From NCBI GenBank assembly GCA_032718475.1, contig JAUCBJ010004470.1, forward strand, positions 57,788 to 121,787: a stretch of DNA of 64,000 bases, given 5' to 3'. Source of the DNA: Nemertoderma westbladi (taxonomy: Eukaryota; Animalia; Xenacoelomorpha). The position numbers were made by a program, and so were the translations under genes. The first letter of the stretch is position 1; each line of letters begins with the position of its first letter. Below the pieces are notes generated by a model. The model was not told where the DNA came from. It made no database searches and saw only the letters and a program-made list of their open reading frames with translations. Positions 7,607 through 63,930 of this stretch are shown piece by piece.

Positions 7607-8030
7607 GTAAGTCTTCATTAATTTAGACAACTTTAGGCAAGTCAAATAATTACGAATCCTTTTATATTCCATCTCCAGTGTAATGTAATCGTGTGTAAGA
7701 ATAGCCTACCAGACGGCCAGAGACTATCTAATCTAACTTTTGGAATATAAATTGTTTTTATTTTTTATAGTCTTTCATGAAAAATGTATTATCAGAATTT
7801 TTATTTTTTATAGAAATAATTATTGTTTTTACTTACTTAGTTTGTTTTTACTTAATTTACAAATTTTCACTCCGGAAAAAGTGATTTTATTTATGGAGTT
7901 TGTTTTTACTTAATTTACAAATTTTCACTCCAGAAAAAGTGATCTTATTTATGGAAAGTTTTACTGCATAATCCAGAAATATTTTATATTCCTATTCACT
8001 TTACTTAATATAAGTTATTTTTATATTTAG
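7607..8030 (+). other. Putative 5'UTR intron of CPEB1
   Basis: Donor AAG|GTAAGT at 7607 and T-rich acceptor ttttttatatttag ending at 8030, one base before the ATG. CCAAT boxes lie upstream near 7378 and 7410. Confidence 0.65.
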
Positions 8031-8031
8031 C

Positions 8032-30300: not shown

Positions 30301-31509
30301 CTCCAACCGGAGTAGCGCCTGCGTCGTCGAATCGGAGACGGTCGCCATGATGTCATCGGAGTCCGGGAGCGGCAGGTCGGGGTCGACGGCGGACAGATAG
30401 CAGAGCAAGGCGAACCGACGAACGCGAAGGCGTTCCAATACCTCAACGGAGTCTCGGAGGCGTTTATAGTGAAGCCGCTGGCCGTCGGCTGCGATGTTAC
30501 CAGATATCTTTACCTCCCTATCGATCTCTGTCTCGATCTCCTTGGAATACCTCTGGAGACTCGATACCAGCTCCTTCGAGGAGCTCCTCTTTGAATCCTC
30601 CTCTTTGAATCTCTCCTTCACGTAGATTAACCCGCTGCCTCGGTTGATTATCCCTACTAAGTTAACGGCGTCTTCCTCCGAGGCGGTTTGTATAAAGTAA
30701 AGATCGCCGGTAGCGGCGCTAATAGAGATGATATTGGGCCGCTTCTTATACTGAGCCTCGGGATATGATAAACAGCTGGAAATGTCGATGGATACCTTCG
30801 CTTTTCCGCCGCCAACCAGCACGGTATTGCTCGCAAACTCGCTATCAACTGCATAAAACAACAATTTAGTGCCACTCAGTATCGACCAATACTTTTTCCA
30901 CGACCTTCGAATTTTTGAGGCCATCTCAAGTTTTTGTTTGTTGTTATTTAACAACAACAACTTAATGTTTAACCACCCCAAGACAACGGTACTTGCTTCG
31001 CTTTGCTGTTCCTCGGGAATTTCGACGCAGTTACTTGAGAGAGAAGGCCCGTTTGAGTTTAATTCCGCTTGCGGGATACCCAACCCCGTTATTGAGCAGG
31101 AAGAAGTGCCGGTGTCGTCGCCACCACTAGCACTGAAATCCGACGATGTCGGTCGACTGCACGCGCTGTCGCTACTCCGAGAGTTTCTGTTTGAGGACAT
31201 CATGCTGTCGGTGTCTATATCGCGGAAGTGAACGTGTTGGCGTATCATGTGCTGGGATGGGTTGAGCTCGTTGTTACTCCCCCTTTCGGGTGCCCCTCCA
31301 TGTTGGACCGTGTCATCCCCAGTGCCGTCGAGTCCCTCGTCTGAAGGACTCGCGAGCACCTGCGACCGCTTTGGGTGGGCATTCTGTAGGAAACTATCCG
31401 ATGCGTGACGCGAGATGTGGGGGACTGACAGTTCACCCTGGTAAAATATTACGTCTTCAATTTCAGAGCCACAAACAGGAGAAGTACTGGTATGACGAAT
31501 TCGATTCAT
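27340..31509 (-). CDS. TIAM1: TIAM1/still life-family Rac guanine nucleotide exchange factor (PH-CC-Ex, RBD, PDZ, DH-PH), uninterrupted ORF
   Basis: PH (RRSWKKYWSILSGTKLLFY), coiled coil, RBD (KIKLPHNQW..V.V..GMT..QLLE..C.KRQMD), PDZ (YGFSI, IYITDVKPNSVA..LGL.VEDEVL.I), DH (ELRDTEALYTKDL, SYLIKPIQRLLKYPLFL), second PH (CFVFRQAIVLL, FLWELIH). The true start could lie further upstream. Confidence 0.92.
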   Translation of the reverse strand: MNRIRHTSTSPVCGSEIEDVIFYQGELSVPHISRHASDSFLQNAHPKRSQVLASPSDEGLDGTGDDTVQHGGAPERGSNNELNPSQHMIRQHVHFRDIDTDSMMSSNRNSRSSDSACSRPTSSDFSASGGDDTGTSSCSITGLGIPQAELNSNGPSLSSNCVEIPEEQQSEASTVVLGWLNIKLLLLNNNKQKLEMASKIRRSWKKYWSILSGTKLLFYAVDSEFASNTVLVGGGKAKVSIDISSCLSYPEAQYKKRPNIISISAATGDLYFIQTASEEDAVNLVGIINRGSGLIYVKERFKEEDSKRSSSKELVSSLQRYSKEIETEIDREVKISGNIAADGQRLHYKRLRDSVEVLERLRVRRFALLCYLSAVDPDLPLPDSDDIMATVSDSTTQALLRLETSSVTALHSLASVRDHGGYDDALETDPSAGHAAPLSGTQERPPVVWDHVLSPNKLAKIKLPHNQWTVVKVASGMTSKQLLEKCCAKRQMDSKNFFLRVKVSNNSEEDGTHSIPGSQTLLEDLKCREVEVKEKLFRLVSLKKSPTDKAYGFSIQPHFELDANTSDNRLRIYITDVKPNSVALRLGLAVEDEVLAIGDKPVTGLDVLYIEEIMQRESLTLILKTSTLVGDDGGSLPLSAVARGVARVACGAEDDFPVGVTSQEVDVLLEDIDAVVDILESSVRPLAELPEPAQLPEPAQPPPPPLNGAGKAARILYELRDTEALYTKDLSRFLEVYLLPGAALLDLGDPSAHFASLSLALNELVAFHASFHENLTDIIGLEDSCSNYTELPQFDQLLFRLAIQFKEICTGEAMLSCYSKFCDVYTKNSVVFHSYKENPKLQDFLLSCNPTGQHDVSPDSYLIKPIQRLLKYPLFLRQLLHLVESAGNPEPRRSLLEALAALEGVAIGINDIQYINSNYADVFEELLGEQDEMVVERLASADLVMFGSVYWLNSNEDLGGGKSSKPARYPLLHCFVFRQAIVLLVKEERSKKKTGSAGNNKNLSIKFRRLIPINNVQTQDGVNVDIEKKFLWELIHTGKVRERSRTDKVYKLCSKDLKSKSNFMKAIRREIKDHRKSKQKSGRSASLTASGDVQSSNVCSHARIKKLNVSERVPRRSSLPAPPAADPRRLPIGGNISLCHPAVDERLRVEDDILEHLADNSMDLESMMLWTEALCGGAEPEEGGVSYYHPGYQYYAGYRDPSWPLEEDAAVDCSSSDNSLNSEGFASNSASSSPRNWSGPNPPVASWSTPHPVPPLWGEVPRSHHSDELYLLQENLLGREGECSTCGMLNGGSTGAPHHHHRESTSAPHHGEPLHHHRPGALETRVLANSTVSVSDRLDQLLHIDASYLYCSSIFDRSSEVILPEVPSPIARLFAENTSFPRSDKIRYE

Positions 31510-32126
31510 TGCGTAAACACATCTAGACTACTGGACTAGCTGTACTCAGGTACTGGCGATATGATGGAAACGGCGATAGCTTACAATGTTGTTGACAGAT
31601 ATTACTGGATTATGGCTGTATGGTGGGTCTATCAGGGTGTCTATTGTACTGTCTGACTGTGGGCGTGGGGCAGGGCAGTGCAGCAGTGGACTGGTGGGGT
31701 AGTACGCCTATAATGTATAGTATAATTATATAAGGATGTGTGCAAGCAGATGTTGAAATATACAGATATAGGCTATATAACATTTAAGGCATAGGCAGAT
31801 AGGCAGTCGGGGAGAAGTTCAAATTTCAACTGAGTTGAAATTTAAAACTTTTTATTTTAATTCAACTTTTAAGTTGTAAATACAACTCTAAAATAGCAGA
31901 GGCTCAGAAGGGCCCCAAGAATTATTATTATTATTATTGTTTTTATGGATGTAACTCGAAAAATTAACCCTCATTACCGATGGAATAAAAACTTTCACCG
32001 TCGGGTATACTTTTTTTTTAAAACATTTTATTTAAGTGATTACATTTGCAAATTAGCTGAAATACTACGGGAATTTATTAGATGTATGAAATTACCGCTG
32101 TTTGTCATAATTATTATACAATGGAA

Positions 32127-35100
32127 TACCGTCGTCTGGGGTGAAGTGAAACAAAATTGTTGGTTTTTTTTAATTTTCTCAAATACATAATACTCCATAC
32201 AGCCGATTTTGAGGTGTTCAACAGGGAATATTACTTATAAGTAATATCAGAATGGTAATACAGATAAATCTGTTATTTCTATAGAAAAAGACAGCAAAAA
32301 GATGCTGTTTTCCAACTTTTTTTAAAAAAAGTATTGCTGTTCCACTTCACCTCATGGGATGGGGTGGGGTCAAGTGGAACAGGAGTGAAAGGCAGAAAGT
32401 TTGGCAATAATTATATATATTTTCCACTTATTACAGGTTATGTATGGGGTGGAGTAGAACAAAAATAAATATTTTTAAAAAACTCAAAATTCAAAAAAAT
32501 TACAAAAAAATCTAAATTTAGACAATTTAACTTTAATATTTAATATTGCTGGCCAACAGGCCCTATCTATAGTAAACACTAACTATTGACACTGTTAAAA
32601 CGATATCGATACAGTGCCCACTGGTTGCAGGGTTGTATTAATTGTAAACATGTATATTGCATATGGGACATTATTGCATAAAGTTAAAAATATTGCAAAA
32701 TTTACTAAAACTAAAATTAACAAAAGTAAAAGCAAATAATTAGGATTAACGTTTAACAATATTGCATATAGTACAGAACATTGCAAAATTTACTAAAACT
32801 AAAAGTAAGAAAAGTAAAAGCATATAATTAGGATTGATGTTTAACAATATTGCAGTTTATATTACAGCTATTAAGCAACTTTCATTGTTACAGTTACTTA
32901 TTGCGGGTTTGGCTGGGTCTGACTAAAGCATACCAATATTATGGGTGTAAGCTGAGTGAATTGCCTTTTCTGTGGCTGAATCTACTTTGTATGAGTTTCT
33001 ACTGATAGTTGGAATAAGGAGATCACCATACATAATTCCCAGGATATTATTTAGTGGCACTTTTGCCTTCTCAGCAATTGATGGCCAGAACCAAAACTTA
33101 TGATTATCCCGTAGCACTTGAGCCATAAAAGACACTTCTATGTCACCAGACTGCTCACAGATACGACAACTTCGCCAACATACCAATCTCTATCGTAAAC
33201 AACAGCCACAACTATGCCGACCTTGAAATCCTCCAATGAATTGAATTTCTGAAGAGCAATATTTTCATATCCTTTGTATGGTTCATTACATTCAAACTCC
33301 ACTGGATCAGTGCTACCACTGTCAGAGATACTAGATTGGTCTTCATCATGTGAATCTTTACTTCCATCAGTACTACTATCTTCTTCTGACTCTGCTATAT
33401 CTTGGCTGTGAAAGACAGGGGGGTGTTCAATCGTCCCTTGACTCGGACCCACGTCATCAGTATCATCCACGTGCTGGAGGTCCCTAAGACCAATGCGTCT
33501 TCCTGGCGGAACTGTAAGCTTCTTCTTGCGCTTGCGTCTTGGGTTTATCCCCTGCTAGCCTAAGTTCTTGGAGAACTTGAACAAATGCCTGGTCCATATT
33601 GCTTTCAATGCCCGCGTTCACAGTGTGGGGCAGTCTTGCTAACACCTGATTCCTATCGAGTGGAAATATTCCTGTCTTTCGAAATCCTGCTATTAGTGAA
33701 GAATTATTCACAATAGCCTCACCTGGCTCCTTTCCTGGTATAGGAATAAAACTTGAGTCTTCTTCTTGGAGCCAGATTATTAGTTTCTTTAATAATTTCG
33801 GAAATTGGTCCTTTGGCAGTGATGCTTGCCTCTTTCCTTCAGGGCTTTCTTTGAATGTAGTCAACATGGCCCGCCACTTACGTTTAAGAGGACCAAAGAA
33901 TGACACATCTAAAGGGTGCATCAGGTGTGTTGAATTTGGTATAAGGCAGATTAATTTTATATTGTATTCAACGCATTTGCTTATGACCTCAGGAACTAAA
34001 TGGCTCGATAAGTTATCTCCAATCAGGGCTTTGGGGACATTTTTCGGAAATCGCTTAAAGTAAGGCAGTGCAATCGATGTGAACCAGTCATTGAAGCAAC
34101 AAGCATCAAACCATCCTGATTTTGATCTATTATAACGTGTATTGCGTAACCCTCCCTCCATCCACTGGTCCCATAAGTTTTCTGACTTATATACAACATA
34201 AACAGGTAACAGTGTTCCTGTTGCACTTCCAGCCATCATAATGGAAATCGCTGACTTGGAAGAATTAATGACTCTTTCTGGGTATTTCACTCCTCTTTTC
34301 ACAACAACCTTCTTACGCCCAGGATCATCTGTTAGATGCTTTCATCATAGTTGACGATTCTTTCCGGAGCTATACCATCTAAGGCTTGAGTAAGGTTGTC
34401 GAAATACTCGTTTACAGGTTTATGGCTGGAGCATCAATAGCCGCCCTAACTCTTTTTATATTTTGACAAAGGCGATTACTCAGCACCATCTTGTGACGAT
34501 GAAGAAATGACCTTCCCCACTCCACACCAGGAACATTGTTGCAGAACTTTTGTATAACACGACCCTGTCTGTCTAAATAGGCCTTTGCCATATATCGTAT
34601 ATCAAATAGGGTCATAGGGAATCCCCACCCTGCACAAATCAGGTACAAACTGCCATAAGACCCCTGTTGTTGTTTGTGCACTTTTCTATATATCGTCGCC
34701 TTCGGTATATGGAACTCCTGCTCTATCTCCCTATACTGCTACCGGTATATGTTTTCCCAGCCAACTTGGCTCGAACAGCCCTCTCAACATCTTGATCACG
34801 GTAATTGCGAAAAGTCTTGGTACCAGGTATGTGCTTGTAAAATCTGACCATGCTTGGATGGAATAGGCTAAAATTCAAAGATATATATCAGATACCTGCA
34901 GTTGTCAGAGTCTTGTTTATTCAAATCCAGATTATCAAATAATGGAGGATAATCAAATAATAAAATAATAAGGATTTTACTTATCGTGCTTATAATTAAA
35001 TGATTAATTTTAATGTTTTACTGTACTGTTGCCACATCCGGCGTAATAAACAAATATACAGATATATAAATTATCAAATAAAGCAAAATTAGAAGCCTAC

Positions 35101-42330: not shown

Positions 42331-42649
42331 ACTAGGAAAAGCGATAATTTTTTAAGACATAGGTATTGTGGCTTTTTTAAGAGTTGAATTTTCGGTGTAA
42401 TAACTTTTCAGTAAACAGTGACAAATAATAATAAATTTGTAGTTGAGGTTTGAGTTTAGTTATTGATGCAGAATAACTTGGTTGAGATTGAAGTAAAGAC
42501 TTGAAAGTTATGAATATTTGAGTGTGAGTTGTTGATGAATAATTCAAGTATGATCATATTAAATTATGTAAAATAAATTAATGCACACGATTTCTACTGA
42601 AGTTAAGTTGAATGCAAAAAGTTGTGGTGATGTTTTATTATTATAGTAT

Positions 42650-44210
42650 ATGGTCCCATATGTCCCATATAGGGTGTTTATGTCCCATACAGGGAGTTTT
42701 TGTCCCAAATAGCATGTAACATTCTCAAAATGATTTTACATAGTTTATAAATATAATGAAATACTCTAAGAAAATAGAATCCACTATCATAGCTTTAATT
42801 TAAATTTGTCCCGTTGTTTCTGTCCCATATAGGGTGTTTGTGTGCCAAATAGCGCATGACTTTCTCAAAATGATTTCACATAGTTTATAAATATAATGGA
42901 ATACTCAAAATAAAATATAATTCACTATCATAGCTTTAATTTAAATTTGTCCCAAATAGGTTGTTTGTGTCCCATATAGGCTGTTTGTGTCCCGTATAGG
43001 GTGTGAAGTGCTTATAATGATTTCAAATAGTTTCGAAATGTAATGGAATACTCAAAAGAATATAGAATTCATTCACTATCATAGCTTTCATTTAAATCTG
43101 TCCCAAATAGGTTGTTTGTGTCCCATATAGGGTGTTTGTGTCCCATATAGGGTGTTTGTGTCCCAAATAGCGTGTGACTTTCTCAAAATGATTTTAAATA
43201 TTTCTAAATCTCATGGAATACTCAAAAGAATATAGAATTCACTACCATAGCTTTAATTTTAATTTGTCCCAAATAGGTTGTTTTTGTCCCATATAGGGTG
43301 TTTGAGTCCCGTATAGGGTGTGAATTGCTTATAATGATTTTAAATAGTTTCGAAATGTAATGGAATACTCAAAAGAATATAGAATTCACTACCATAGCTT
43401 TATGTTCAATTTGTCCCAAATAGGTTGTTTTTGTCCCATATAGGTTGATTTTTGTGCCAAATAGCGTATGACTTTCTCAAAATGATTTTAAATAGTTTCT
43501 AAATATAATGGAATACTCAAAAGAAAATATAATTCACTATCACAACTTTAATTTAAATTTGTCCCAAATAGGTTGTTTGTGTCCCATATAGGTTGTTTGT
43601 GTCCCATATAGGGTGTGAAGTGCTTATAATGATTTCAAATAGTTTCGAAATGTAATGGAATACTCAAAAGAATATAGAATTCACTATCATAGCTTTCATT
43701 TAAATCTGTCCCAAATAGGTTGTTTTGTGTCCCATATAGGTGTTTTTGTTCCATATAGAGTGTTTGTGTCCCAAATAGCGTGTGACTTTCTCAAAATGAT
43801 TTTAAATACTTTCTAAATCTCATGGAATATTCAAAAGAATATAGAATTCACTACCATAGCTTTAATTTCAATTTGTCACAAATAGGTTGTTTTTGTCCAA
43901 TATAGGGTGTTTGAGTCCCGTATAGGGTTAAATAGTTTCTAAATGTAATGGAATACTCAAAAGAATATAGAATTCACTATCATAGCTTTCATTTAAATCT
44001 GTCCCAAATAGGTTGTTTGTGTCCCATATAGGGTGTTTGTGTTCTTATATAGAGTGTTTGTGTCCCAAATAGCGTGTGACTTTCTCAAAATGATTTTAAA
44101 TAGTTTCTAAATCTCATGGAATACTCAAAAGAATATAGATTCACTACCATAGCTTTAATTTTAATTTGTCCCAAATAGGTTGTTTTTGTCCCATATAGGG
44201 TGTTTGACTG
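42650..44210. repeat. Satellite of about 140-167-bp units, each with 20-bp subrepeats (tgtcccatatagggtgtttg)
   Basis: About 10 units of tgtcccaaataggttg...ggaatactcaaaagaatatagaattcactatcatagcttt; two subtypes are interspersed. Confidence 0.95.
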
Positions 44211-44211
44211 T

Positions 44212-45050
44212 ACCTTGACGAACTCCGTTCGTTAACATAAATGACTAGGAGTGGAAGCTGTTCCAGCGGACGCAACATGTTTGATTACTATAGATCCATA
44301 GCAGGGTTCGTAAGAAAAAAGGAGAAAACCCCTTCTTAATAAGTTCCAGAAATAGCTTGCACCATTCAACCATATCGAAGGCTTTCGATAGATCGAGAAG
44401 ACATCCAAATACAGGAGTTGCGTTTCTCGAATAGAAACCGAGAACCTCTGTAGCCGCCCAGGTACATTGGGACGTACTGGAACCACTTTGGAACCCGAAT
44501 TGCAACTCATCCAAATGTAAGCACTCAGCCTGCGAGATCTGCATGACCCACTCAAACAACTTAATCAGGAGGGAGGATAAAGCAATAGCCCTGTAATTAC
44601 TGGAAAGGGAATCGTCACCTAATTTATATTTTATCAAAGGAATAATGACACACGTCAGTAAGAACTGTGCAACAAAGCCATGAATGAGAAAACTGTTGAA
44701 CAAAACACTTAAATGTGAACATAATTCTCGAGGACCATTGATCAGGCAATCAGAATCAAAAGTTACGTCTGTTTTAGAGCTTTTTAGCCTACAGTATGTA
44801 GACCTTCACTGACCAAATCCCGAGTGATATTGCGGGAAATCAGCTGAATCACATCCTTCAAGTTTATCGGAAATCTGCGATCTTAAGAATTCTAAATCGG
44901 AATCATACGGTTGATTATATAGGTCTGAATATATACTGGCGAATCGGTCGGCTATCGATTGTGGGTCTGTACAACCATCAATGGTCGAAGTCACAGTGTT
45001 CGGTGTGGATCTAAGTTTCTTTATTTCTTTAAATATATCACTATTATTCC
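44212..45050 (-). mobile_element. CR1/L2-group LINE RT fragment
   Basis: IIPLIK...SSNYRAIALSS...LQFGFQ...ST...CLLDLSKAFDMV...C.VRWN...NGVRQG. Confidence 0.85.
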
Positions 45051-46975: not shown

Positions 46976-47639
46976 TGAGATGGGATCGGAGATCCTGACC
47001 GGGTTAGAAATGTACGCGTCACCGTTCTGCTGGGCAGTCGTGCTAGTTGCTTTGGCCGAAGGCCGTTGGGGAAAACAATAAGAGTTTCTGTTGTTTCTCA
47101 ATATTGATTAACGTAAACGATAATAGCATGTCGGTAGTGATACAGTTGTAATAGCAGAAAAATACAGATTAATTGCTCTTACTGGCGGTGACGGTCATTA
47201 ACTATGACCGGTCTGCACTGACTGGATAACTGAATCAACTGACCGGTAAATCAGTAATGTAGGATAATATATGGTTAACACACATGGATATTGATTTCAC
47301 CTCTTACTGTACTTTGGCCCTCTGTACCCAATGGATGCTTTCCTATCTCTAATCACGTGCTTCCCTCCCCACTATTGGCTAATATACTAATTGTCACTTT
47401 GGCACTCCCTGTGAGTGTTTCCCCCTGCTGCTAGCCTCTACTAGCTGTATTCCCTCCGAGGTGGTTTAACCTCTCACCTCTCTCTGTGGCTTTGGGACTT
47501 GTGTCGCCCCCCCCCCCTCCCCCAAATGTTGGTTATGAGACGAGATTAATATTGGTAATCTCATATCCCCAACATATTGCTAAAATGCCACTGGTCCCAT
47601 TTTGTGGTGGGTAATGAAGCAGAATTGAATCCGCTTACA
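46976..47639 (-). repeat. 3' LTR of the BEL/Pao element
   Basis: Direct repeat of 58145-58805; element sense TGTAA...TCTCA. Confidence 0.93.
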
Positions 47640-47650
47640 CTCCCCCCCAT
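47640..47650 (-). promoter_or_regulatory. Polypurine tract
   Basis: Minus strand ATGGGGGGGAG directly abutting the LTR TG. Confidence 0.85.
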
Positions 47651-47682
47651 GCTATCTTCCCGGTGAGAAGATAGCATTAACC

Positions 47683-48860
47683 TTAAGTGCCGTAATCCTC
47701 CCCCCTTATGTCCGCCTCTCTCTCGTCTGCTTCCCTCCTTTCTCGCCTGGCAACTTCTTCCAGATGCTTGTCCTCGACTCTATCTGCTTCTAGCTTCTCC
47801 CATCTCTTGTATGGTGTATCCACCTCTCTGTCTACTAGGTGCCGGCTGTTGTAGTACACCGACTCACCCTTCAGCTCCAGGTGGTCTACCAGACCTTTGA
47901 AGGCCACCTTAAATGCTCTTCTGTAGTTTAGAGGTGCTCCTGATAGCAGAATCGCCGTTGGCTCTCTTCTGATAACCACGGCCATGAATAGGTTTAGTAA
48001 ACCTATCATTATCCATCCTCCTGTAGAATATATCTCTTCTGATATATCTTTATCGCTCCTCTTCGGAACTGATACACCTCCGGTTTCCCTGGCCTCGCTC
48101 CCCACTTCAGCGAGTTCGCCAGCTCCACTCTGTACTCCTCCCGGAATTTACCCCAGTCCATTGGCTTGTGGCAGACGAGCCCCATGAGCTGACCCATCGC
48201 CACTGCTCTGCAATGTCCTGTGTTCTCTACCAATCCCAACCTGTCTGGCCCTGTCATTGCCATGTAGACCGCTTACATGTCCAGGATGTTGGGGGTCTCC
48301 AGTCCGACGATCCTCTCCGCATCGTCGCGGATCACCAATCCCACCTTTACCGTAGTCTTCTCCCTTACTAGGTCCTGCACCGCCCTTGGCAACCGGTTTA
48401 AATTAGGCCCGCTCTTCTTCCCGTAGTTTCCTAGATTGAATAGAAAGATTTCTCCATTTGGCGCTGCCAAAAGCAGTAGTATGGTTCTAGCCGATCCCGC
48501 CGACCCTCTTCTCGAGCCCTCGTCATCCTCCACAGTCCCCTCGTCATCTAGGACCACGTATCCGCCCCTATTCACAGACTCTACAAACCTCCTCCAGTCC
48601 TTTCTCGGTGGTTCCCTCGGATACTTCGGTATCCCAAACTTCGCTTCGTCTCCCTTCACTACATAGCGAAAATGGTCGAGGATCGCGTTATCCAGCAACG
48701 GTGTCCCGTAGGTCCCGACCAGTCATCTCTCGTGCATCTCCCTTAAGTGGTCCTGCAGCGCTCGCGCTTTGTGACCCTTTGCTAGTGGCTTGTAGTATCC
48801 CCTTGTCTTCTCTTCCGGATGCCTAGTATCTCCTTTCCACTCCTCTCCGTCTTTCTCATC
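47683..48860 (-). pseudogene. Extra ORF of the BEL element: DEDDy 3'-5' exonuclease (WRN/EXD/mut-7/RNase D-like), with in-frame stops and a 1-nt deletion
   Basis: Exo I YVVLDDEG; ILLLLAAPNGEIFLFNL; LPRAVQDLVREKTTVKVGLVIRDDAERI (Exo II); NILDM. Exo III YQKRYILQ(D) is restored by one T insertion near 48018, which also joins the frame ending at 47683. Start position approximate. Confidence 0.8.
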
Positions 48861-49522
48861 TTAACTAGTCTCTCCGCCATTACGAACTTCCTCGCTCGCT
48901 CACCTTCTTGGTGGTGCCTTACCAAAGGCTCAAGTAGATGAGTGACGTTTAGTAAGATGGTCTGTGTTAGTTCAGTAATGGCCTATCCCTTATGAATCCT
49001 AATTTGTACTATATTTTTACCTATATGTACCCCAAAGTGCCAACTTTTCCTAAATTTCCAAAATCTGTCCATTACTTTAGTTATAATTCTAGAATCCTCT
49101 ACCTACTGTTACAATAATTTGTCAGATTTTACTTCTAATACTATTTTATTCTCTGCTAGTGTGCTATTATCGGTTATGGCGGGTTATTTTTACTTAGATA
49201 ACCCCTATAGTTTGTATACAGGGAAAACTAGCTATTCTCTACTGTGCTACTTTCGTACCAGGCAACCTCCTGGCCCTGTATCAAACACCCTAAACTTACT
49301 CTATGGGACGTGCAGTACAGTAGTCTGTCTCGTGCGGCCTACATGTTCTATCCTGCTGTACCCACGTGCCCCCCTCTCCCTTTCGTGGTGCTCTCAATGT
49401 CCACAACCTCTACGGTACTACGTACCCTACTATTACTCTTATGGTATATCTATATACCATACTCTCTACTCTCTTACTACTAACTTTTACTAACTCTACG
49501 AACTCTAACTTCTAACTCTAAT

Positions 49523-49995
49523 GGTACTATGTACCCTGCCACTACTCTCGTGGTATGTTTATATACCACACTCCCTAACATCTAACTGCCTACGGTACTA
49601 TGTACCCTACTACTCTCGTGGTATGTCAATATACCACACTCCCTAACTTCTAACTGCCTACGGTACTATGTACCCTGCTACTCTCATGGTATGTCAATAT
49701 ACCACACTCCCTAACTTCTAACTGCCTACGGTACTATGTACCCTACTACTCTCGTGGTATGTCAATATACCACACTCCCTAACTTCTAACTGCCTACGGT
49801 ACTATGTACCCTGCTACTCTCATGGTATGTCAATATACCACACTCCCTAACTTCTAACTGCCTACGGTACTATGTACCCTACTACTCTCATGGTATGTCA
49901 ATATACCACACTCCCAAACTTCTAACTGCCTATGGTACTATGTACCCTACTACTCTCATGGTACGACAATGTACCACACTCCCTAACTTCTAACT
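49523..49995. repeat. 68-bp tandem array (about 7 copies), two hairpins per unit, inside the BEL element
   Basis: Unit ggtactatgtaccctactactctcgtggtatgtcaatataccacactccctaacttctaactgcctac; starts at 49594, 49662 and 49730 give the 68-bp period. Confidence 0.95.
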
Positions 49996-50076: not shown

Positions 50077-53000
50077 TTATTTTTTATATTTTGTGTGGGA
50101 AGGGCATCTCGCCCTCATTCCCACCCCCCTCAGTCCAACATTTTGGACGACTAAACTCAAAGGTGCCCCTTCCAAAAGGCAGCACTTTCCTACAGCCCTC
50201 CTGTAGGTCTTCCTATCTTTTGCTCCTATCTTGCCTCCTATTCTCACTTCCACCGACCGGACTCTTCCGTCCTCGTTGGGGTAAGTATCTACCACTCTCG
50301 CTAGTCTCCACTGGTTATTGATAATTGTGTCGTCAGTGATGATTACCAAGTCACCTTTCTTCATCTCCCTAATGGTGTTTCTCCACTTACTTCTCCTATG
50401 TAACGTCGGAAGATATTCCTCTACCCATCTCCTCCAATACTCAGCACTTATTGCCTTGGCGACTTTCCAACTTTGACGGGAGTGTATGTCATCTGGGTCT
50501 ACACCCCGCATGTCGATGGTCGCCGGCCTCTCCATCAGAAAGTGTCCCGGTGTTAGCACGTCCAGTGATTCCCGGTCGTCATTCTCTGGATATAGCGGTC
50601 TGCTATTAATGATCCCCTCGCACTTGGCTAGTACCGTTCTTAATATGTCCTCTGTGACCATGTGGGTGTTCATCAGCTTGGTCATTAAACGCTTAGAACT
50701 TCCAACAAGTCTCTCTACACATCCTATCGTATGTGGCGCATACAGCGTCCTCCTTTCCTACTTTAATTGCCGTCTCCTCATAGCCGCCCTGACATCGTCT
50801 CCCTCTTGGATGTCGAAGGCCTCGGCCAACTCGTTCTCAGCTCCCACGAAGTTGGTCCCGTTATCTGAATATATCACCGTGATCGTTCCCCCTTTGTGGT
50901 TTACAAATCTTTCTAAGGCATTAATGAATGCCGATGCCGTGGCATCCTGCGCAAGTTCTATCCCCACCGCTCTTGTGTTGTTGCATACGAAGATAATGCC
51001 GTAGCGTTTCTCCGTGTGCTGCATCACCTTTATCTTAATCGGCCCGAACATGTCCACGCCACAGTGCGTGAATGGTGGGTCGTGTTGTCTCACTCTATTG
51101 GCCGGTATTGGTGCCATCTCCTGTACGGCCCTCTCCTTTCTCGTCCGTCGGCAGGTCTGGCACTGCCCCACTACGACCTTCACCTTCTTCCTAAGTTGCA
51201 TGATCCAGAATGTCCTTCGTATCTCTGTGAGGATCTGATTCGTGCCTCTGTGTAGTATCGACTTATGCGAATCCCAAATGATCTGGTGGACTATCTGTGA
51301 TTTGTTAGGGATTATTATGGGTTTTGGTGGGATAACTAGGCTGTTGTTGTTCACCACTCTGGAATTCATCACCAGAATCCCGTCATCGTTCAACTACAGA
51401 TTGAGTTCACTGTCTCGACGAAGGTGTTGTTGCTTGCTAACTCTGTCCACTTCGTCGGCGTAGTTCTTTCTCTGCTCGTATTGTATTACGGCTCTAGCCG
51501 CTCCTTCCAGATTGATGGTTGGTTTCCTTTTGGCATCCTTGCCAACTCCCCTAAGGAAATCCCCGTAGGCCCTCCAATACGCTACCAACTTCTTAGTCTT
51601 ATACCAGCTGAAGCTCTCACTGAGCAACCTATCCGTCGGGTTATTGCATGGTTCTTCTGATTTTGGTGGCATCTCCTTGACCTCCCCCACCATCTGGCAG
51701 TATATCTCTTCCCCTTCTGAATCCCCCCCCCCCTCTTCTGCTACTACTTCCTCTGAGCCCGGGTCCACCTTCCTCATTTGTGGCCAGGCTGATCTATCAT
51801 TCAGGAAGTGTGGTCCGTGCTGCCACAACCCTTCCTTCTTTAAGAAAGTGTGGCCTGCCACGCCCCTCGATAACAGATCTGCTGGGTTGTCGTCGGTAGG
51901 GCAGTAATGCCACCTTTCTAGGTCAGTCGTCACCCTTATCTCATCTACCCTATTTGTGACGAATATAGGGTATCTCGTCTTCTCGTTATGTAGCCACCCT
52001 AGCACTACCATGGAGTCCGTCCATTTGTGTGTCTCCACTATATTGGGTATAGTCTCCATCAAGTAGGCTGTGGCCCTTACTCCTAACCTCGCAGATGTCA
52101 GTTCGAGTTTTGGGACTGATGCTGAATCTGGTGGCGTCGACTTTGCTTTACTAAATGCAAGTCTGGGCTTATGAGCCCCCTTTCGCTGTACCAGATAAAG
52201 TGCCGCTCCATATGCTTCCAAGGATGCATCGGAAAACATGTGTAGATCCAGGTCCGTCATGTCTCCATCCGGGAAATACACGCATGGCATGGTGTACGTC
52301 CCCCATCTGCTCCAGACTCCTCCGTATCCCACTCATCCTTTAACTTGTATATTTTCTTTAGTATCTGTTTCCCCATGACTAACAATGGGGATGCTAGGCC
52401 TAGGGGATCGTAAATCCTTGCTATGTACGATACATAGCCCAGCTTGGTGTGGATCTCTGCACCCTCTTGGCTCAGTGGATACTCCAACTCATCCGTCTCA
52501 CGGTTCCACCCGATCCCTAGCGCCTTCTGCTGAGACTCCACTCTCTTATTCACAATATCCTGCCCCTTTGCTGTTGTGGGGTTGTCCATGGTCGACTCTG
52601 GTCGCCTGTCTTCTATGGCTTTCATGAATTCCTCTGAGCTGGACTGGAACTTAGTGAGGTTGAACCCGGATCCTTTTAGGATGTCGCAAACCTCGCTCCC
52701 TATTTCCAGTATTTCTTCAATCGTGTTTCCAGATCCCATCCCATCGTCTACATAGAAACCGCATCAAATCATGTCAATCACCTTCGCACGATACTCTCCT
52801 TCTTTGCCCTCCACCGTATCTCTCACAGCCATAGCTGTCGTAAATGAGGACGACTTGGCCCCCATGTTCTGCACCACCATTTTGTACATCGGTATCTCAG
52901 ATAGTTCTTCGTCGCCGTTGTACCATAGGAAGCGCTAACTGTCGCTGTCCTCTTCCGCCTGCCTTCAATGTTGCATGTGAAGCACGTGCCTCCCATTTCT

Positions 53001-56000
53001 AAATCTCAACAAGACCTCTATCCCCGAGTTGTAAATGTTGGGGCCCTCCAGCAGATAGTCGTTCAGGCTCTTGCCATTCGTTTTGGCCGATGCATCGACC
53101 ACCATCCGCTGTTTACCCTTCTTTGGGTGTAAAGCCACATGGAGTGGCACATAGTAGGTCCTGTCCGTGTTTGGTTTGTCGACCGGTAACTCCATGGCCC
53201 ATCCCTTCTCGACGTATTTCTTAATTGTCTTGTGGATGTACTCATCCTTCTCTGGGCTCCGCCTGAGCGTCTGCTTCAGCTTGCGAAGCCTCGTGAGTAC
53301 CATCGCTTTATTATCTGGCAACGGTAGCTTAGGTTGTTTCCACACCATCCCTATGGTGTACCGTCCCCCTTCACACTTCATCGACTCCTTTACACTTTCT
53401 ATCGCTTGTTTATCCTCTACCGAGGTTCCGACCCCGGCCTCCTTCAATCCTGCGAAGTCCTGCTTCAGCAGCCTCTTAAGCTGCTCCTCTGCTCCTTTAT
53501 CCTCCATCTCCCTCATTGTCCCTGCGAACATGCACCCTGATGTCTCCGACATCCTGAATGGAATCTTGGTTTTGATTGGGCCGCTAAGCATCCATCCGAA
53601 CGGCGTGAGAATCGCCATTGGATCGTGCTGCCTGTTCTCTCTGAAAATGGTCCGTACTCTCTCGTGGGCCATCGGACAGTCCATTTCCACTATGATGGAT
53701 ACCTTTGGGACATCCACTTCCGGTATCGAGAAATCGATATCGTCCAGGAATCAGTATTGATCGAGCTCGATCTTAGTGGGTCGCCTGGCATTTAGGTTAA
53801 TCGATTCTATTATTTGTATGGGGTCGATGATCACCCCATAATCACATCCTGGTGCTATTGCTGATATCTCGCACTGTCCCGTCCTCATCTGCAGGACCTC
53901 ATCCTTGCTCGAGATAGTAGTTACCGCCATCCTACTCGGCCTCGTTTGTAACCTTATCTCCTCGGCCACCCAATTCTCCACCAGCGTGAAAGCTGCTCCG
54001 CTGTCGACCAGCATCAATGTTGTGACTGATCGACCGCTTTCTCCCATCACCCTGACCGGTACCACCCCGAGTAGTGCCGTTCCCCTTCTCTTCATTCCTA
54101 TGGTGCTTGTCGGCATCGTTTGGCCTCTGCCTTGACCGAATTTAATTGGTGTCTCCTTACATTGTTCAGCCTTGTGTCCGCCGATGACAGATTGATGACA
54201 GATTTCACTTTTGTTCACATATTCTACCTGGTCTTGTTTGGGTAACGCTTGCCAATACTTGCAGTTCATGGTCTGATGGAGTGCGTTAGAGTGTAGTTAG
54301 CATTTGTTTCTCGGATTATAGCCTTCCCTATACAGCGCGCTGCGTATCGCACATATATTCAAACTTAGCTCTCTGGTGTTCTTATTATTTGGGTTTGGCC
54401 TACTGGGCGTGTTGGGGTTATATTTATTTGTGTTATTATTTTGTCCTTGTCCATGCCACGGTGTGGCCCTACCCCCGGCTATCTGTGGACTAGCAGTTCC
54501 CTGCGTCGTCGCATATGGAAGCGATTGTCTCAGCTTTGGTAACGCATTTGCCGCCCTCCCCAGACTATCCTCACTGTAGACTGGGTCCGTGATTAGCTCC
54601 GCTTTGTAATTGAGGAAATTCAACATTTCCTCTAGGCCCGGTTCCGCACCTTTCTTCTCCCGGGTGGAGAAGGCGATCTTCCTCCACTTGTTTCTTAGCC
54701 AGATTGTGGTGATGTTATTCGATGCGTTGAGTTCGTAAGGCGCATCCAAGGTCTTCAGCACAATCAGTGCCTTTTCGACCTTATTCGCGAAAGTCTTGAT
54801 ACTGACAGGGTTATCCTGTAGGCCAACTGATGTTATTCCCCTCAAGGTTTGCCGAATGATCTTGGCAGGGTGTCCATATTCCCTGTCTAGGGCCCGCCAT
54901 GCAGTCGTGAATCCACCCTCGATACCTTGATACTGCCTTACGATATGCCTTAAGCGCATCAATGAGTGTTGCCATTCCCATCGCCTGTGCTTCTAGTAGG
55001 CTCGATTGATGCTGTACAGACTCTCCCATTGCTGGGTGCGGTTTGCCCGTCGGGCCTGTCGACCTCTTTTGTGTCGGATATATCATTGGGGGTAATGGTC
55101 CCCTCCATATCTCTGTATCGCATGATTTATTTTGGTCCAAGGGGTTCGGGGTTTTTGTTTTGGGTATATGTTATATCCCTGCATATTATAGTCATACTGG
55201 TGTGCAGGTACCAGTATAGGCCTATCCACTTCTTGCCTACCTACCGGTATGTATGCCGCGACTTCCGGGTCTAATCCCGTTGTCCGCGCACCCTATCGCC
55301 TACACTATCTCTTCCAGCATGGCCTATAGTATGTGCAGTAAGGCATACAGTATGTCCTACAGTCTGCCTGTGTCCTTCCGGACCGAAGTTTAATCTTCTC
55401 GAATATTCCAAGAAGTCCTCCCCGCGACTACTGTACTCTCGATTTGCAGCTATGTCCCTCCGGGAAGTTTATCTTCGATCCCCCCTTCTGTCCTCGTCTT
55501 CGTACTGGTACATCCTGTACCCTTCTCCCGGTGTATGGTATATCTCACCAGGCTGCGTCTTTCCAGGATGACGGCAATCTCCCGGAGTTCGACCCCACTG
55601 ACTCTCTAACTCCATTTCTACTGCCGACGGTTCACTGTCCGTCCTTGCTCTCCGGTTGCTCGTAGCAACGCTTCTTCTATTCTCTTCACTTCTTCTCTCT
55701 TCAGCGTAGTGATCCCCTTCGTGAGATCTCTCTTTGACCTCCCGGATAAACTCCACTGTTCTTCTTCCGTCTTCCGACTGGGATCGACGTCTTGTTGCTT
55801 GCCCGCTCACGGCGCCAACCTCTCTATCCCTACCCAGTTGGACGCTCCTGGGGATACTCGCAATCCCCCTACTATACTCTGTCGTCGGGTACCGCGGTTC
55901 ACCTAACTCGCCCCGCGCATTATCTGCCGACGCTTGTGGGACATTCTCTGCCCCCCCCCTCTCGCCACTGATCTCTCGTGGTGGGGTGCCCGTAGCCCCC

Positions 56001-58085
56001 CCCCCCCCCATCCGCCACCTCTTACTTCGCTACCTCCTACTTCGCTTCTAAGCCCCTCTCTAGTCGACGCACTATCTCTACTCCGACTGGGTCTACTCAC
56101 CCCCGCCTCTTCCTGTGTGACTGCATGGCCTTGCAGGCTCACGTCGGGTTGACTCACCCCCGCTACTCCCTGCCTAACTACGTGGCCTTGCAGGTTCCCG
56201 TCGGGTTCACTCACCCCCACTACTCCCTGCGTAACTATGTGGCCTTGCAGGCTCTCGCTGGTCGGACCACCTGTCTCCCCTACGTTCATATTAATTGCAC
56301 CGTTATTCATAATGTTATTTTGATTAATTTCTCCGGGGTTATTATCTGACGCAACATTATTATCTAAGTTATTTAAATTGCTTAAATTATTTTGTTCAGA
56401 ATTAGGGCTATTATTTGGAATATTCTGCACATTTAAATTAGAATTATTTGGATTATTTTGCACGTTTAAATGAGTATTATTTGGATTATTTTGTACGTTT
56501 AAATTAGTATTATTTGGATTATTTTGCACATTTAAATCAAAATTATTATTACCGGGTAAAATATTATTTCCTGCAACAAAGGTCTGATTAGGGTTGTCTA
56601 CTACGGTACTATTAATATTAATTCCTTCTAACGTATTATTATTACCCCCACCCCCCAGTCCTTTGGTATTTTACACCAAGTAAAACCCAAGTTTACACCA
56701 GTCCTGGGTCTGTTGTCCGGTGCCTGTAAGTGGGGTGTTAACAAACGTTTCCATTACTTCTGGCTCCTCGTAAACACTACCCGAACGAGCCTCACTCTCC
56801 GATAATCCCAACTTCGCCAGTTCCAACCGGCGCTTTTGCTTCGCCTGGTATTGCATAAGCCCTGGGTATGCATATCATCCCGCATACGCTTTCCCGCTCT
56901 CTCTCTCCCTCTATCCTCTCTCAAACTTTGGTCGGCCAACTCTGCCTCTCTTGCAATCCTCTCAACCCTCCTCGCCTCACGATCCTTGCGCTCATTCGTT
57001 TCCCTCTCAATTATTTCAGCCTCTCGCATCTTATGCTCGCTTTCCAGTCTTGCCTACCGCTCCTCGCGCTCTTTGCAATCGCTTGTCTCTCTCGACTCTC
57101 GCTCTCTGCCCTCCCTCATTTCTCTCTCCTCACCCTCTCTAAAGTTTAGCGCCACCCTCTCGGCTCCCTCTTTACACTCTCTCACTAAATCTCTCTTTCT
57201 CTAATAACGCGGTTCCCTTGTCCAGTTGCCTCTCCAGCTCCTTCTGATCTAGCGCCACAAGGTCTAATTGACACACCAGATATATCTCTAACACCCTTCT
57301 TGCTTCTGCGGTTTATGTAGCGGACTTATCGGTCGCAACGGACTCCCATCGCTTCTCTGTCCTACTGATTTTCCCCCACTTTCTGGGGTTCTCACTGACC
57401 GACGACACCGAATCCTTGGGGTTAACCTCGGGTTCACCGTCGTGCGGGTCCGCCAAACCCACTAACTTAATTCCCCTAGCATCCACTAAGTAAGGCCCTA
57501 CGTACACTACCTCTGGCTCCATTACCCCAGATCGCCACAATTCAAACAGTTCCGTGGCGACCCCCTCGCTCTCTCACTCGCCAGTTCTCCCTGTCCAAAA
57601 CGGACTAAATAGCAAAAGTGTTTATTTGACTCACCTAGCCTCAGGTATAGTTTAGGCTGGTCTACCTTTTTCCCTTCCTTGGCCTCCTTAAGTAGTTTCT
57701 TGGTGGTGTTGTAGGCCCGTCGTAGCCGATCACTCGTCCCGACATCCTCTTCGCTGACTCCGCCTCCTCTCCTCATCCAGCGTCGTACCGGCGGCCTCAC
57801 CATCGCCGTTCCGGTGTGCCGTCCGTCGCCCTCAGCCTGTGTCAGGCCGGCGACTTCGGTATTCCGACCGCCGTCGTCGTCGCGCGTCGACTTGTCTCCC
57901 TCTCTCCTTCGTAGTTGACGGCCGCCCTCCGCTTGGGCTACCGGATCGTCCCTCGTCGGCGAATCTGGCATGGCTGGCCAATACCATCGCGTTGCGGCCT
58001 CACGGATCATTTGGTTGGTGTCGCCCGGGGTCCGCGGCGGCGTCCTCTCTCCCTCTGATAATCGGGGCGTTCTTTCTTCTGCCAT
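50077..58085 (-). pseudogene. BEL/Pao gag-pol polyprotein, disrupted
   Basis: Long charged/Asn-rich gag; AWRAL..EYG.P; protease LVDSGA; P.AILTPFGWMLSGP; RT YYVPLH, R.VVDASAK..G.SLND.L..GP, FYVDD; YDPLGLASP; RNase H LHMFSDAS..AYGA, LELTS, WTDS.VVL.W, NPADLLSRG; integrase HHCC, GVDMFGP, IYSDNGTNFVGA, INSRPL, LTPGHFL, W..W..EYL..L..R.KW. Confidence 0.95.
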
Positions 58086-58144
58086 CTTTCTGTCTCCTTG
58101 CAGTCACAGTTTTTAGTTGGCAGTTAGACTCGGTAGTTAATGAC

Positions 58145-58805
58145 TGTGACGGGATCGGAGATCCCGACTGGGTTAGAAATGTACGCATCACCGTTCTGCT
58201 GGGCAGTCGTGCTAGTTGCTTTGGCCGAAGGCCGTTGGGGAAAACAATAAGAGTTTCTGTTGTTTCTCAATATTGATTAACGTAAACGATAATAGCACGT
58301 CGGTAGTGATAAAGATGTAATAGCAGAAAAATACAGATTAATTGCTTTTACTGGCGGTGGTCATTAACTATGACCAGTCTGCACTGACTGGATAACTGAA
58401 TCAACTGACAGGTAAATCAGTAATGTAGGATAATATATGGTTAACACACATGGATATTGATTTCACCTCTTACTGTATTTTGGCCCTCTGTACCCAATGG
58501 ATGCTTTCCTATCTCTAATCACGTGCTTCCCTCCCCACTATTGGCTAATATACTAATTATCACTTTGGCACTCCCTGTGAGTGTTTCCCCCCACTGCTAG
58601 CCTCTACTAGCTGTATTCCCTCAGAGGTGGTTTGACCTCTCACCTCTCTCTGTGGCTTTGGGGCTTGTGTCCCCCCCCCCCCCCCCCCCCAATGTTGGTT
58701 ATGAGACGAGATTAATATTGGTAATCTCGTATCCCCAACATATTGCTAAAATGCCACTGGTCCCATTTTCTGGTGGGTAATGAAGCGGAATTGAATCCAC
58801 TTACA
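58145..58805 (-). repeat. 5' LTR of the BEL/Pao element
   Basis: Element sense TGTAA...TCACA; direct repeat of 46976-47639 with scattered substitutions and small indels. Confidence 0.93.
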
Positions 58806-63256: not shown

Positions 63257-63374
63257 TATTATAATCATGATACGATAGCAGAACCATTACAGATTAATTA
63301 CTATGTTAATATTGTACAGTAAATTATTACATTATACACTGTAGTACATTATAACAAAAGATTAACAATATTTG

Positions 63375-63930
63375 TTACATAGTAGAGCAAACGGTTGTCA
63401 GTAGGTTAGTGGGACACGTAAAGGACGTGGGTACATCGTAGAGAAAACGGTTGTCACATAAGTAGGCTAGAAGTAGGACACGTAGGGGACGTAGGTACAG
63501 CACATCGTAGAGGAAACGGTTGTCACATAAGTAGGCTAGAGGGACACGTAGGAGACGTGGGTACATCGTAGAGGAAACGGTTGTCACATAAGTAGGCTAG
63601 TAGGACACGTAGGGGATGTGGGCACATCGTAGAGGAAACGGTTGTCACATAAGTAGGCTAGTGGGACACGTAGGGGACGTGGGTACATCGTAGAAGAAAC
63701 GGTTGTCACATAAAGTAGGCTAGTGGGACACGTAGGGGACGTGGGTACATCGTAGAAGAAACGGTTGTCACATAAGTAGGCTACACCCCCCTAGAAGTGG
63801 GACACGTAGGGGACGTGGGTACAGTACATCGCAGAGGAAATGGGCCTAGTTGTTACATAAGTAGTGGGACACGTAAGGGACAGTGTTACACCATAGAATG
63901 AATGGTTCTTACATAAATAGTGGGACATCT
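63375..63930. repeat. Tandem repeat, unit about 60 bp
   Basis: gggacacgtaggggacgtgggtacatcgtagaggaaacggttgtcacataagtaggctagt repeated about 8-9 times with small indels. Confidence 0.95.

What the first reader, a model, noticed from the sequence alone, without database searches (positions are those of the whole stretch)
47683..48860. BEL/Pao retrotransposon carries a WRN/RNase D-like DEDDy 3'-5' exonuclease in the env slot
Seen: between integrase (ends 50077) and the PPT/3' LTR there is a sense-strand extra gene that stops about 30 nt before the PPT. It reads YVVLDDEG (Exo I DxE), ILLLLAAPNGEIFLFNL, LPRAVQDLVREKTTVKVGLVIRDDAERI (Exo II) and YQKRYILQ. Inserting one T (cag ga[t] gga tgg) restores YxxxD (Exo III) and fuses the ORF fragments 48009-48263 and 47683-48105. 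Known: this motif series characterises DEDDy exonucleases of the WRN/EXD2/mut-7(Nibbler) group, and extra ORFs in this position of BEL/Pao elements are usually env-like. Inference: a captured nuclease that retained its catalytic residues. It may act in RT proofreading, primer or RNA end trimming, or interference with piRNA 3' trimming. I am not aware of this cargo being described for BEL/Pao, but I cannot check the literature here.
Basis: partly seen in the sequence, partly recalled or inferred. Interest (0 to 1): 0.88.

Follow-up and report, generated by a model that had tools for sequence, protein, structure and literature searches.

The report
BEL/Pao retrotransposon carrying WRN-like exonuclease gene
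A jumping gene of the BEL/Pao type carries an extra gene where some relatives have an envelope gene; it is broken in this copy, kept under selection in other copies, and likely encodes a WRN/EXD2-like enzyme that would trim nucleic-acid ends, a cargo we found described only for unrelated rotifer retroelements.

Summary
The window holds a complete but decayed BEL/Pao element on the minus strand (LTRs 46976-47639 and 58145-58805, 5-bp target duplication). An extra sense gene ends 32 nt before the polypurine tract. It is family cargo: 717-1127 contigs of other copies lie on its core in each of three runs. Those copies differ from this one at both core breaks, and 18 of 24 variable sites are synonymous (neutral expectation 29%). 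DEDDy homology is weak but repeats across tests. A bacterial WRN-like profile scores P about 1e-4 (0 of 3000 shuffles; top of 852 window tiles). EXD2 is one of only two PDB hits (E 1.4), aligned across Exo II. Pfam, a 1.84-billion-protein search and two low-confidence folds gave nothing. DEDDy ORF3s are published for rotifer Juno/Vesta and Terminon elements, and the scan has noted Rrp6-like ones in other genomes; I found no BEL/Pao case. Verdict: a new variant of a known kind.

The parts
58145..58805 (-). 5' LTR (begins TG, ends CA)
   Evidence: blastn 95.8% over 664 nt to the 3' LTR; ends and target duplication
46976..47639 (-). 3' LTR; 5-bp target duplication AAAAT on both flanks
   Evidence: contigs that run from the left flank straight into the right flank (empty site) in X1 and X5 (table 7 compared)
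53751..54992 (-). gag-like DUF1759 and aspartyl protease, broken by stops
   Evidence: Pfam DUF1759 E 6e-5 (just under its cut-off), Asp_protease_2 E 1e-5
50077..53750 (-). pol in several broken pieces: RT region, Pao A17/RNase H, integrase H2C2 + rve, DUF5641
   Evidence: Pfam; the 120 best listed relatives (of 417) are 34-47% identical, and all but one carry Pao A17 and/or integrase H2C2 and/or DUF5641 domains
49505..49995 (.). 68-bp tandem array, 7.2 copies, between pol and the extra gene
   Evidence: TRF, 94% matches
48723..48982 (-). uncertain N-terminal part of the extra gene: two overlapping frames, stops at 48861-48863 and 48723-48725
   Evidence: start not resolved
48273..48722 (-). 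extra gene, core piece 1: putative Exo I (D59 48546-48548, E61 48540-48542), beta2, beta3, alphaA, beta4, Exo II (D134 48321-48323); ends in a stop private to this copy
   Evidence: aligns to EXD2 47-119 and to the bacterial WRN-like profile; Exo I placement best of 75 with two RNase D profiles; stop differs in other copies
48012..48272 (-). extra gene, core piece 2: W-x-ARP element and putative Exo III (Y231 48030-48032, E235 48018-48020, D236 48015-48017); frame break near 48014
   Evidence: BLASTP to E. coli RNase D E 0.002, single comparison; Exo III placement best of 55; break
47683..48012 (-). extra gene, C-terminal piece in a second frame (109 aa, charged tail), stop at 47683-47685
   Evidence: no Pfam match
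47649..47677 (-). 13-pair hairpin between the stop codon and the polypurine tract
   Evidence: -24.5 kcal/mol for 47636-47690, z -4.8, 0 of 200 shuffles
47640..47650 (-). polypurine tract
   Evidence: sequence, directly before the 3' LTR

Best explanation
This is a decayed copy of a BEL/Pao retrotransposon family whose members carry, between integrase and the polypurine tract, a third gene kept under purifying selection that likely encodes a highly diverged DEDDy 3'-5' exonuclease of the WRN/EXD2 branch, predicted to trim 3' ends of nucleic acids that matter to the element. Shown: position inside the LTRs, presence in many copies, selection on the reading frame, breaks private to this copy. 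Inferred: the fold; capture long ago from a host or another mobile element; expression from a separate, probably spliced message (as stated for ORF3s in PMC5408684; no RNA data here). The mechanism I think most likely: a two-metal site of D59, E61, D134 and E235, with Y231, acts on RNA 3' ends, either the element's own RNA (primer or template ends in the particle) or host small RNAs that silence it. My odds, given the fold: active enzyme about 55%, binding without cutting about 45%.
For: Family-wide: 1127, 749, 717 and 5 contigs lie on 47990-48600 in runs X1, X2, X3 and X5 (X1 and X3 are one sample). The stop codon differs in 96-100% of summed depth (15, 8, 8 and 1 contigs). A length difference near 48014 is carried by 82-96% of depth in X1-X3. 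Selection: of 39 classified sites, the 24 variable among copies are 19 third-position and 18 synonymous (neutral 0.29, p 4e-6), while the 15 near-fixed differences from this copy are 2 synonymous (p 0.26 against neutral; Fisher p 2e-4). Homology: an HMM of 17 bacterial WRN-like proteins (best PDB matches WRN, NrnC, Pol I, EXD2) gives 7.8 bits, P 1.2e-4, 0 of 3000 shuffles. It ranks this frame first of 852 window tiles and gives at most 0.7 bits per domain on 480 frames of other BEL loci. Block chain 76.5 against shuffles 28.5 +/- 7.8 and real DEDDy controls with median about 90. Blind PDB search: two hits at E <= 10 among 177,635 sequences, one of them EXD2, aligned over residues 81-156. The RNase D pre-Exo III element matches at E 0.002.
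Against: No database-level significant hit: Pfam none; no protein at E <= 0.001 among 1.84 billion for the first core piece; no homologue at near or longer lengths. The EXD2 hit has E 1.4 and ranks behind an unrelated protein. RNase D profiles do not score the whole protein: the short-RNase-D profile gave -2.1 bits with 672 of 3000 shuffles higher, the RNase D profile reported no score, and hhalign probabilities were 0.1-2.8%. The block chain did not pick the proposed Exo I or Exo III by itself, and with the WRN-like profile Exo I ranks 2nd to 4th of 75. I chose the blocks after seeing the query. Exo III has Glu for Asp. The selection test uses 39 of the 40 rows shown, out of 127, ranked by support, and contig depth is no copy number. 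No contig links this gene to pol in another copy.
Confidence: 0.72

Rival explanations
1. The gene has the DEDDy fold but is a pseudo-enzyme, like EXD1 or Maelstrom: it would bind RNA or partner proteins and act as a decoy or adaptor against piRNA silencing without cutting.
For: Glu replaces the Exo III Asp in the best placement, and Exo I scores weakly on the WRN-like profile. PMC5408684 (discussion read) notes that Maelstrom and EXD1 are inactive DEDD derivatives in piRNA biogenesis.
Against: Acidic residues stand at all four positions and the Tyr is present. None of the 40 listed differences falls in those codons (87 rows not shown, so this is weak). Rotifer ORF3s also change the motif (DEED) and are still considered possibly active.
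Confidence: 0.35
2. The gene is real and selected but unrelated to DEDDy nucleases; the motifs are a chance likeness of an alpha/beta protein.
For: No Pfam, representative-library or fold hit; hhalign probability under 3%.
Against: Three separate comparisons land in the same register: the WRN-like HMM, EXD2 in a blind search and RNase D. 0 of 545 real protein tiles reach the chain score.
Confidence: 0.15
3. The segment is a one-off insertion, or a passenger decaying neutrally.
For: This copy is broken in three or more places. None of 80 related BEL loci shows such a gene (24 have 2.5 kb or more downstream). Many contigs leave the element at 47690 (29 in X1, 16 in X3, 4 in X5), so some relatives have another 3' region.
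Against: Hundreds of contigs cover it, the breaks are private, and variation is mostly synonymous.
Confidence: 0.04
4. It is an env-like gene.
For: Position only; few BEL/Pao elements have env (PMC3118150, passages read).
Against: No clear transmembrane stretch, 2 Cys, no sequons; no env family in Pfam.
Confidence: 0.02

Closest known systems
DEDDy ORF3 of bdelloid rotifer LTR retrotransposons Juno and Vesta, and of Athena/Terminon elements (PMC5408684; abstract, methods, results, discussion and figure legends read)
   Same: Extra gene after pol in the env position; DEDDy-type exonuclease; altered catalytic motif; no transmembrane domain; activity not shown.
   Different: That paper covers Juno, Vesta, TelKA and Mag and does not mention BEL or Pao; that these are Ty3/gypsy-type lineages is recalled. 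Its motif is DEED, here apparently D-E-D-E. Its ORF3 variation within the genome looked neutral where tested (env and GDSL), whereas this gene shows purifying selection.
WRN exonuclease domain / EXD2 (PDB 6k17) and bacterial WRN-like 3'-5' exonucleases
   Same: Collinear beta2-beta3-alphaA-beta4-Exo II-beta5 core.
   Different: Very low similarity (E 1.4 in PDB), insertions between the motifs, Glu at the Exo III Asp column, extra N- and C-terminal parts, and encoded by a mobile element.
RNase D (E. coli rnd)
   Same: Best Exo I placement and the W-x-ARP element before Exo III.
   Different: Whole-domain RNase D profiles do not score the protein; no HRDC domain in Pfam.
env-carrying BEL/Pao elements (PMC3118150; passages read)
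   Same: Extra gene between pol and the 3' LTR.
   Different: No envelope features here; that survey does not contain the word exonuclease.

Membership tests
BEL/Pao LTR retrotransposon | Two LTRs with TG...CA ends and a 5-bp target duplication | tested here: met
BEL/Pao LTR retrotransposon | gag-PR-RT-RH-IN order with Pao-specific domains (DUF1759, Peptidase_A17, DUF5641) | tested here: met
   (RT itself gave no Pfam hit in the broken pieces); relatives
BEL/Pao LTR retrotransposon | Polypurine tract next to the 3' LTR | tested here: met
   47640-47650
BEL/Pao LTR retrotransposon | tRNA primer-binding site after the 5' LTR | tested here: inconclusive
   No TGG start after the LTR end; host tRNAs not available
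DEDDy 3'-5' exonuclease (PF01612; WRN/EXD2/RNase D) | Pfam PF01612 score over the curated cut-off | tested here: not met
   no hit on the pieces or on the X read-through; this copy is decayed
DEDDy 3'-5' exonuclease (PF01612; WRN/EXD2/RNase D) | Collinear sequence similarity to family members beyond chance | tested here: met
   significant in targeted tests only
DEDDy 3'-5' exonuclease (PF01612; WRN/EXD2/RNase D) | Exo I D-x-E after a beta strand | tested here: met
   D59, E61; best of 75 placements with two RNase D profiles, 2nd to 4th with the WRN-like profile
DEDDy 3'-5' exonuclease (PF01612; WRN/EXD2/RNase D) | Exo II Asp | tested here: met
   D134 aligns with the Asp after the VGVG strand in EXD2 and in the bacterial set
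DEDDy 3'-5' exonuclease (PF01612; WRN/EXD2/RNase D) | Exo III Y-x-x-x-D | tested here: not met
   Y231 is followed by E at +4 and D at +5; the break lies downstream
DEDDy 3'-5' exonuclease (PF01612; WRN/EXD2/RNase D) | RNase H-like (DnaQ) fold | tested here: inconclusive
   single-sequence models with pLDDT 39-40; no Foldseek hit at E <= 0.001, VIA best Z 4.6
DEDDy 3'-5' exonuclease (PF01612; WRN/EXD2/RNase D) | Metal-dependent 3'-5' exonuclease activity | not testable with these tools
   needs an assay
Rotifer Juno/Vesta/Terminon DEDDy ORF3 group | Clusters with those ORF3s rather than with cellular enzymes | not tested
   their sequences were not obtained
env (ORF3 fusion glycoprotein) | Transmembrane anchor, cysteine set, glycosylation sites | tested here: not met
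   (on 48722-47683; the unresolved N-terminal part was not included)

The most novel reading that the evidence does not exclude
A high-copy BEL/Pao family independently captured a WRN/EXD2-branch exonuclease and keeps it as an active enzyme with a D-E-D-E site that trims host piRNAs or their precursors. That would be a retrotransposon-encoded enzymatic counter-defence, and one of several independent captures of DEDD nucleases in the env slot across LTR superfamilies.
Probability: 0.15. Interest if true: 0.85.

Novelty: new variant of a known kind. Interest (0 to 1): 0.55.

Why it matters
Exonuclease ORF3s were a rotifer curiosity with no evidence of benefit to the element: PMC5408684 found no clear link to copy number. 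Here a different LTR superfamily appears to carry one from the WRN/EXD2 branch, and its reading frame is under purifying selection in a family with many copies. That argues the cargo helps the element and that such capture is convergent. It also makes the question of what these nucleases do (RNA-end processing or anti-piRNA action) testable in a family with many natural variants.

Tried and rejected
No genome is held for the window, so copies could be seen only as short contigs laid on it. No RNA holder was listed. Pfam on the pieces and on the X read-through: no DEDD family. PDB sequence search with the first piece alone: three unrelated weak hits. Homologue searches near and longer: none. 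Representative library, first core piece only: none. Metagenome contigs: 434 pattern matches, none confirmed. Plasmids: no match. The language-model look-alike search gave no result and stays open. Two single-sequence folds had pLDDT 39-40; Foldseek and VIA listed no DEDD structure, which excludes nothing; the wide VIA search ran only on the second model. My first bacterial profiles were spoiled by wrong-strand ORFs and gave no signal (138 and 111 of 2000 shuffles higher); I rebuilt them from correctly picked frames and count only the rebuilt ones. One search timed out. 80 related BEL loci: no DEDDy-like frame, and 10 downstream ORFs gave only CUB, SAP, gag/pol or nothing. Splice signals: two weak acceptor-like sites (49301, 49205) and two donor-like sites, none convincing. 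The bacterial promoter scan is at chance level and not relevant. Literature: 7 searches (listings seen) and term look-ups in PMC3118150, PMC6338049, PMC7998251, PMC6431247, PMC8556966, PMC8220671 and PMC5718144 (passages only) showed no BEL/Pao exonuclease. Repbase, Dfam, subscription journals and all supplements were not seen.

Full report
The element. The finding lies inside an 11.8-kb element on the minus strand. Its LTRs are 58145-58805 and 46976-47639, 95.8% identical over 664 nt, flanked by the duplication AAAAT. Contigs that join the two flanks show the empty site. Pfam finds DUF1759, an aspartyl protease, Peptidase_A17, integrase H2C2/rve and DUF5641 in order. The 120 best listed integrase relatives (of 417) are 34-47% identical, and all but one carry Pao A17, integrase H2C2 or DUF5641 domains; none lists PF01612. 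The element is BEL/Pao, and this copy is decayed: pol is in several pieces. The host is an animal by its neighbouring genes; no genome is held.

The extra gene. After the integrase stop (50077) come a 68-bp array, about 500 nt of mostly non-coding sequence, and the extra gene. One frame runs from 48722 to 48012 with a stop at 48273-48275 and holds all the motifs quoted. A second frame continues to a stop at 47683, 32 nt before the polypurine tract. The start is unresolved.

Is it family cargo? Three runs of one species hold the stretch. On 47990-48600, 1127, 749, 717 and 5 contigs were laid in X1, X2, X3 and X5, most of them under 95% alike (X1 and X3 are one sample). At the internal stop, 96-100% of summed depth differs from this copy. 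Near 48014, 82-96% of depth in X1-X3 carries a length difference. Both breaks are therefore private to this copy. I classed 39 of the 40 listed sites (127 exist; the stop site was left out). The 24 that vary among copies are 19 third-position and 18 synonymous, against a neutral expectation of 0.29 (p 4e-6). The 15 near-fixed differences are 2 synonymous, as expected for decay after insertion (the result holds at thresholds 0.85 and 0.95). The frame is thus coding and selected in the family. Caveats: the rows are ranked by support, depth is no copy number, and no contig links the gene to pol in another copy.

Is it a DEDDy nuclease? Against: Pfam, the 1.84-billion-protein library (first piece), two word-based searches and metagenome contigs found nothing. 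Two single-sequence folds were unusable (pLDDT 39-40). For: I collected natural PF01612 proteins from bacterial genomes. A set of 17, whose representative matches WRN, NrnC, Pol I and EXD2 best, scores the X read-through at 7.8 bits, P 1.2e-4, with 0 of 3000 shuffles as high, and ranks this frame first of 852 window tiles. The same profile gives at most 0.7 bits per domain on 80 other BEL loci. RNase D sets do not score it, and hhalign probabilities are under 3%. A first round with contaminated alignments gave no signal. An ordered-block score gives 76.5 (shuffles 28.5 +/- 7.8, 0 of 1500; 0 of 545 BEL polyprotein tiles; true DEDDy controls median about 90), driven by beta2, beta3, alphaA-beta4-Exo II and beta5; I chose those blocks after seeing the query. 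A blind search of all PDB sequences returns two hits at E <= 10, one of them EXD2 (E 1.4), aligned over residues 81-156 with D134 on its Exo II Asp. BLASTP against E. coli RNase D hits the W-x-ARP element before Exo III (E 0.002, one comparison). No single test is decisive, but they agree in register; I put the fold at about 85%.

Catalytic residues. D59 and E61 are the best Exo I placement with two RNase D profiles (13.1 against 5.2, and 10.6 against 3.7) but rank only 2nd to 4th with the WRN-like one. For Exo III the best 8-residue placement starts at Q228 (8.2 against 3.7) and puts Y231 on the Tyr column and E235 on the Asp column; the longer 17-residue block prefers a place ten residues earlier. 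The site would be D-E-D-E, which may or may not be active. The protein shows no envelope features.

How it most likely works. Inferred: the family makes this protein from a separate message, and it trims or binds RNA 3' ends, either of the element's own RNA during replication or of the small RNAs that silence it. RT proofreading seems less likely, because the protein is not fused to pol and the WRN/EXD2/mut-7 group acts mostly as stand-alone end-processing domains (recalled). None of this was tested. No RNA run was listed.

What is known. PMC5408684 (abstract through discussion and figure legends read) reports DEDDy ORF3s in rotifer Juno and Vesta LTR elements and in Terminons, with DEDD changed to DEED, activity not shown, and roles in 3'-end processing or silencing proposed; it does not mention BEL or Pao. 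Reviews repeat this (passages of PMC5718144, PMC6431247 and PMC6338049). The BEL/Pao survey PMC3118150 mentions only rare env (passages). Seven searches showed no BEL/Pao exonuclease; Repbase, Dfam and supplements were not seen. Unchecked notes of this scan report Rrp6-like or DEDDh ORF3s in other genomes, mostly in gypsy elements, and none like this sequence. None of 80 related BEL loci shows such a gene, though only 24 have enough downstream DNA, so the cargo appears restricted to this lineage.

Verdict. A real, selected accessory gene of a BEL/Pao family, likely a diverged WRN/EXD2-type DEDDy nuclease with a non-canonical Exo III. It is a new variant of a known kind; interest 0.55.

Noticed in passing
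window 47649-47677 (-): A 13-pair hairpin sits between the extra gene's stop and the polypurine tract and overlaps the start of the tract (z -4.8, 0 of 200 shuffles).
   Followed up: partly
window 47690: Many contigs share the LTR, PPT and last codons but leave the window's sequence here (29 in X1, 16 in X3, 4 in X5): a sister subfamily with another 3' region or another gene end.
   Followed up: no
window 48565-48636: A 72-nt, frame-keeping skip just before Exo I occurs in one contig each of X1, X3 and X5, so this stretch is dispensable in some copies.
   Followed up: no
window 58095-58150 (-): No TGG primer-binding site follows the 5' LTR. The LTR end can pair with a stretch about 35 nt downstream (8 pairs, z -2.2, 6 of 200 shuffles), a weak hint of fold-back priming.
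   Followed up: partly
window 46975 and 58806: Contigs join the two flanks directly (14 in X1, 1 in X5): the empty site exists, and the target may itself be a repeat.
   Followed up: partly
window 54992-58103 (-): About 3 kb of broken frames upstream of DUF1759, with 57-bp and 33-bp tandem arrays and an Asn-rich repeat; the three pieces scanned with a cut-off of 0.01 and one with a cut-off of 1 have no Pfam family.
   Followed up: no
window 27343-31527 (-) and 8014-9819 (+): Long uninterrupted host frames: a Tiam1/SIF-like RhoGEF (1395 aa) and a CPEB-like RNA-binding protein (602 aa), genes that usually have introns (recalled).
   Followed up: no
window 18501-19265, 44248-44805, 33487-34341: Other mobile elements: two reverse-transcriptase remnants and a DDE_1 transposase.
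   Followed up: no
window 42633-44223 and 63370-63920: Complex satellite-like arrays (about 147-bp and 61-bp units).
   Followed up: no
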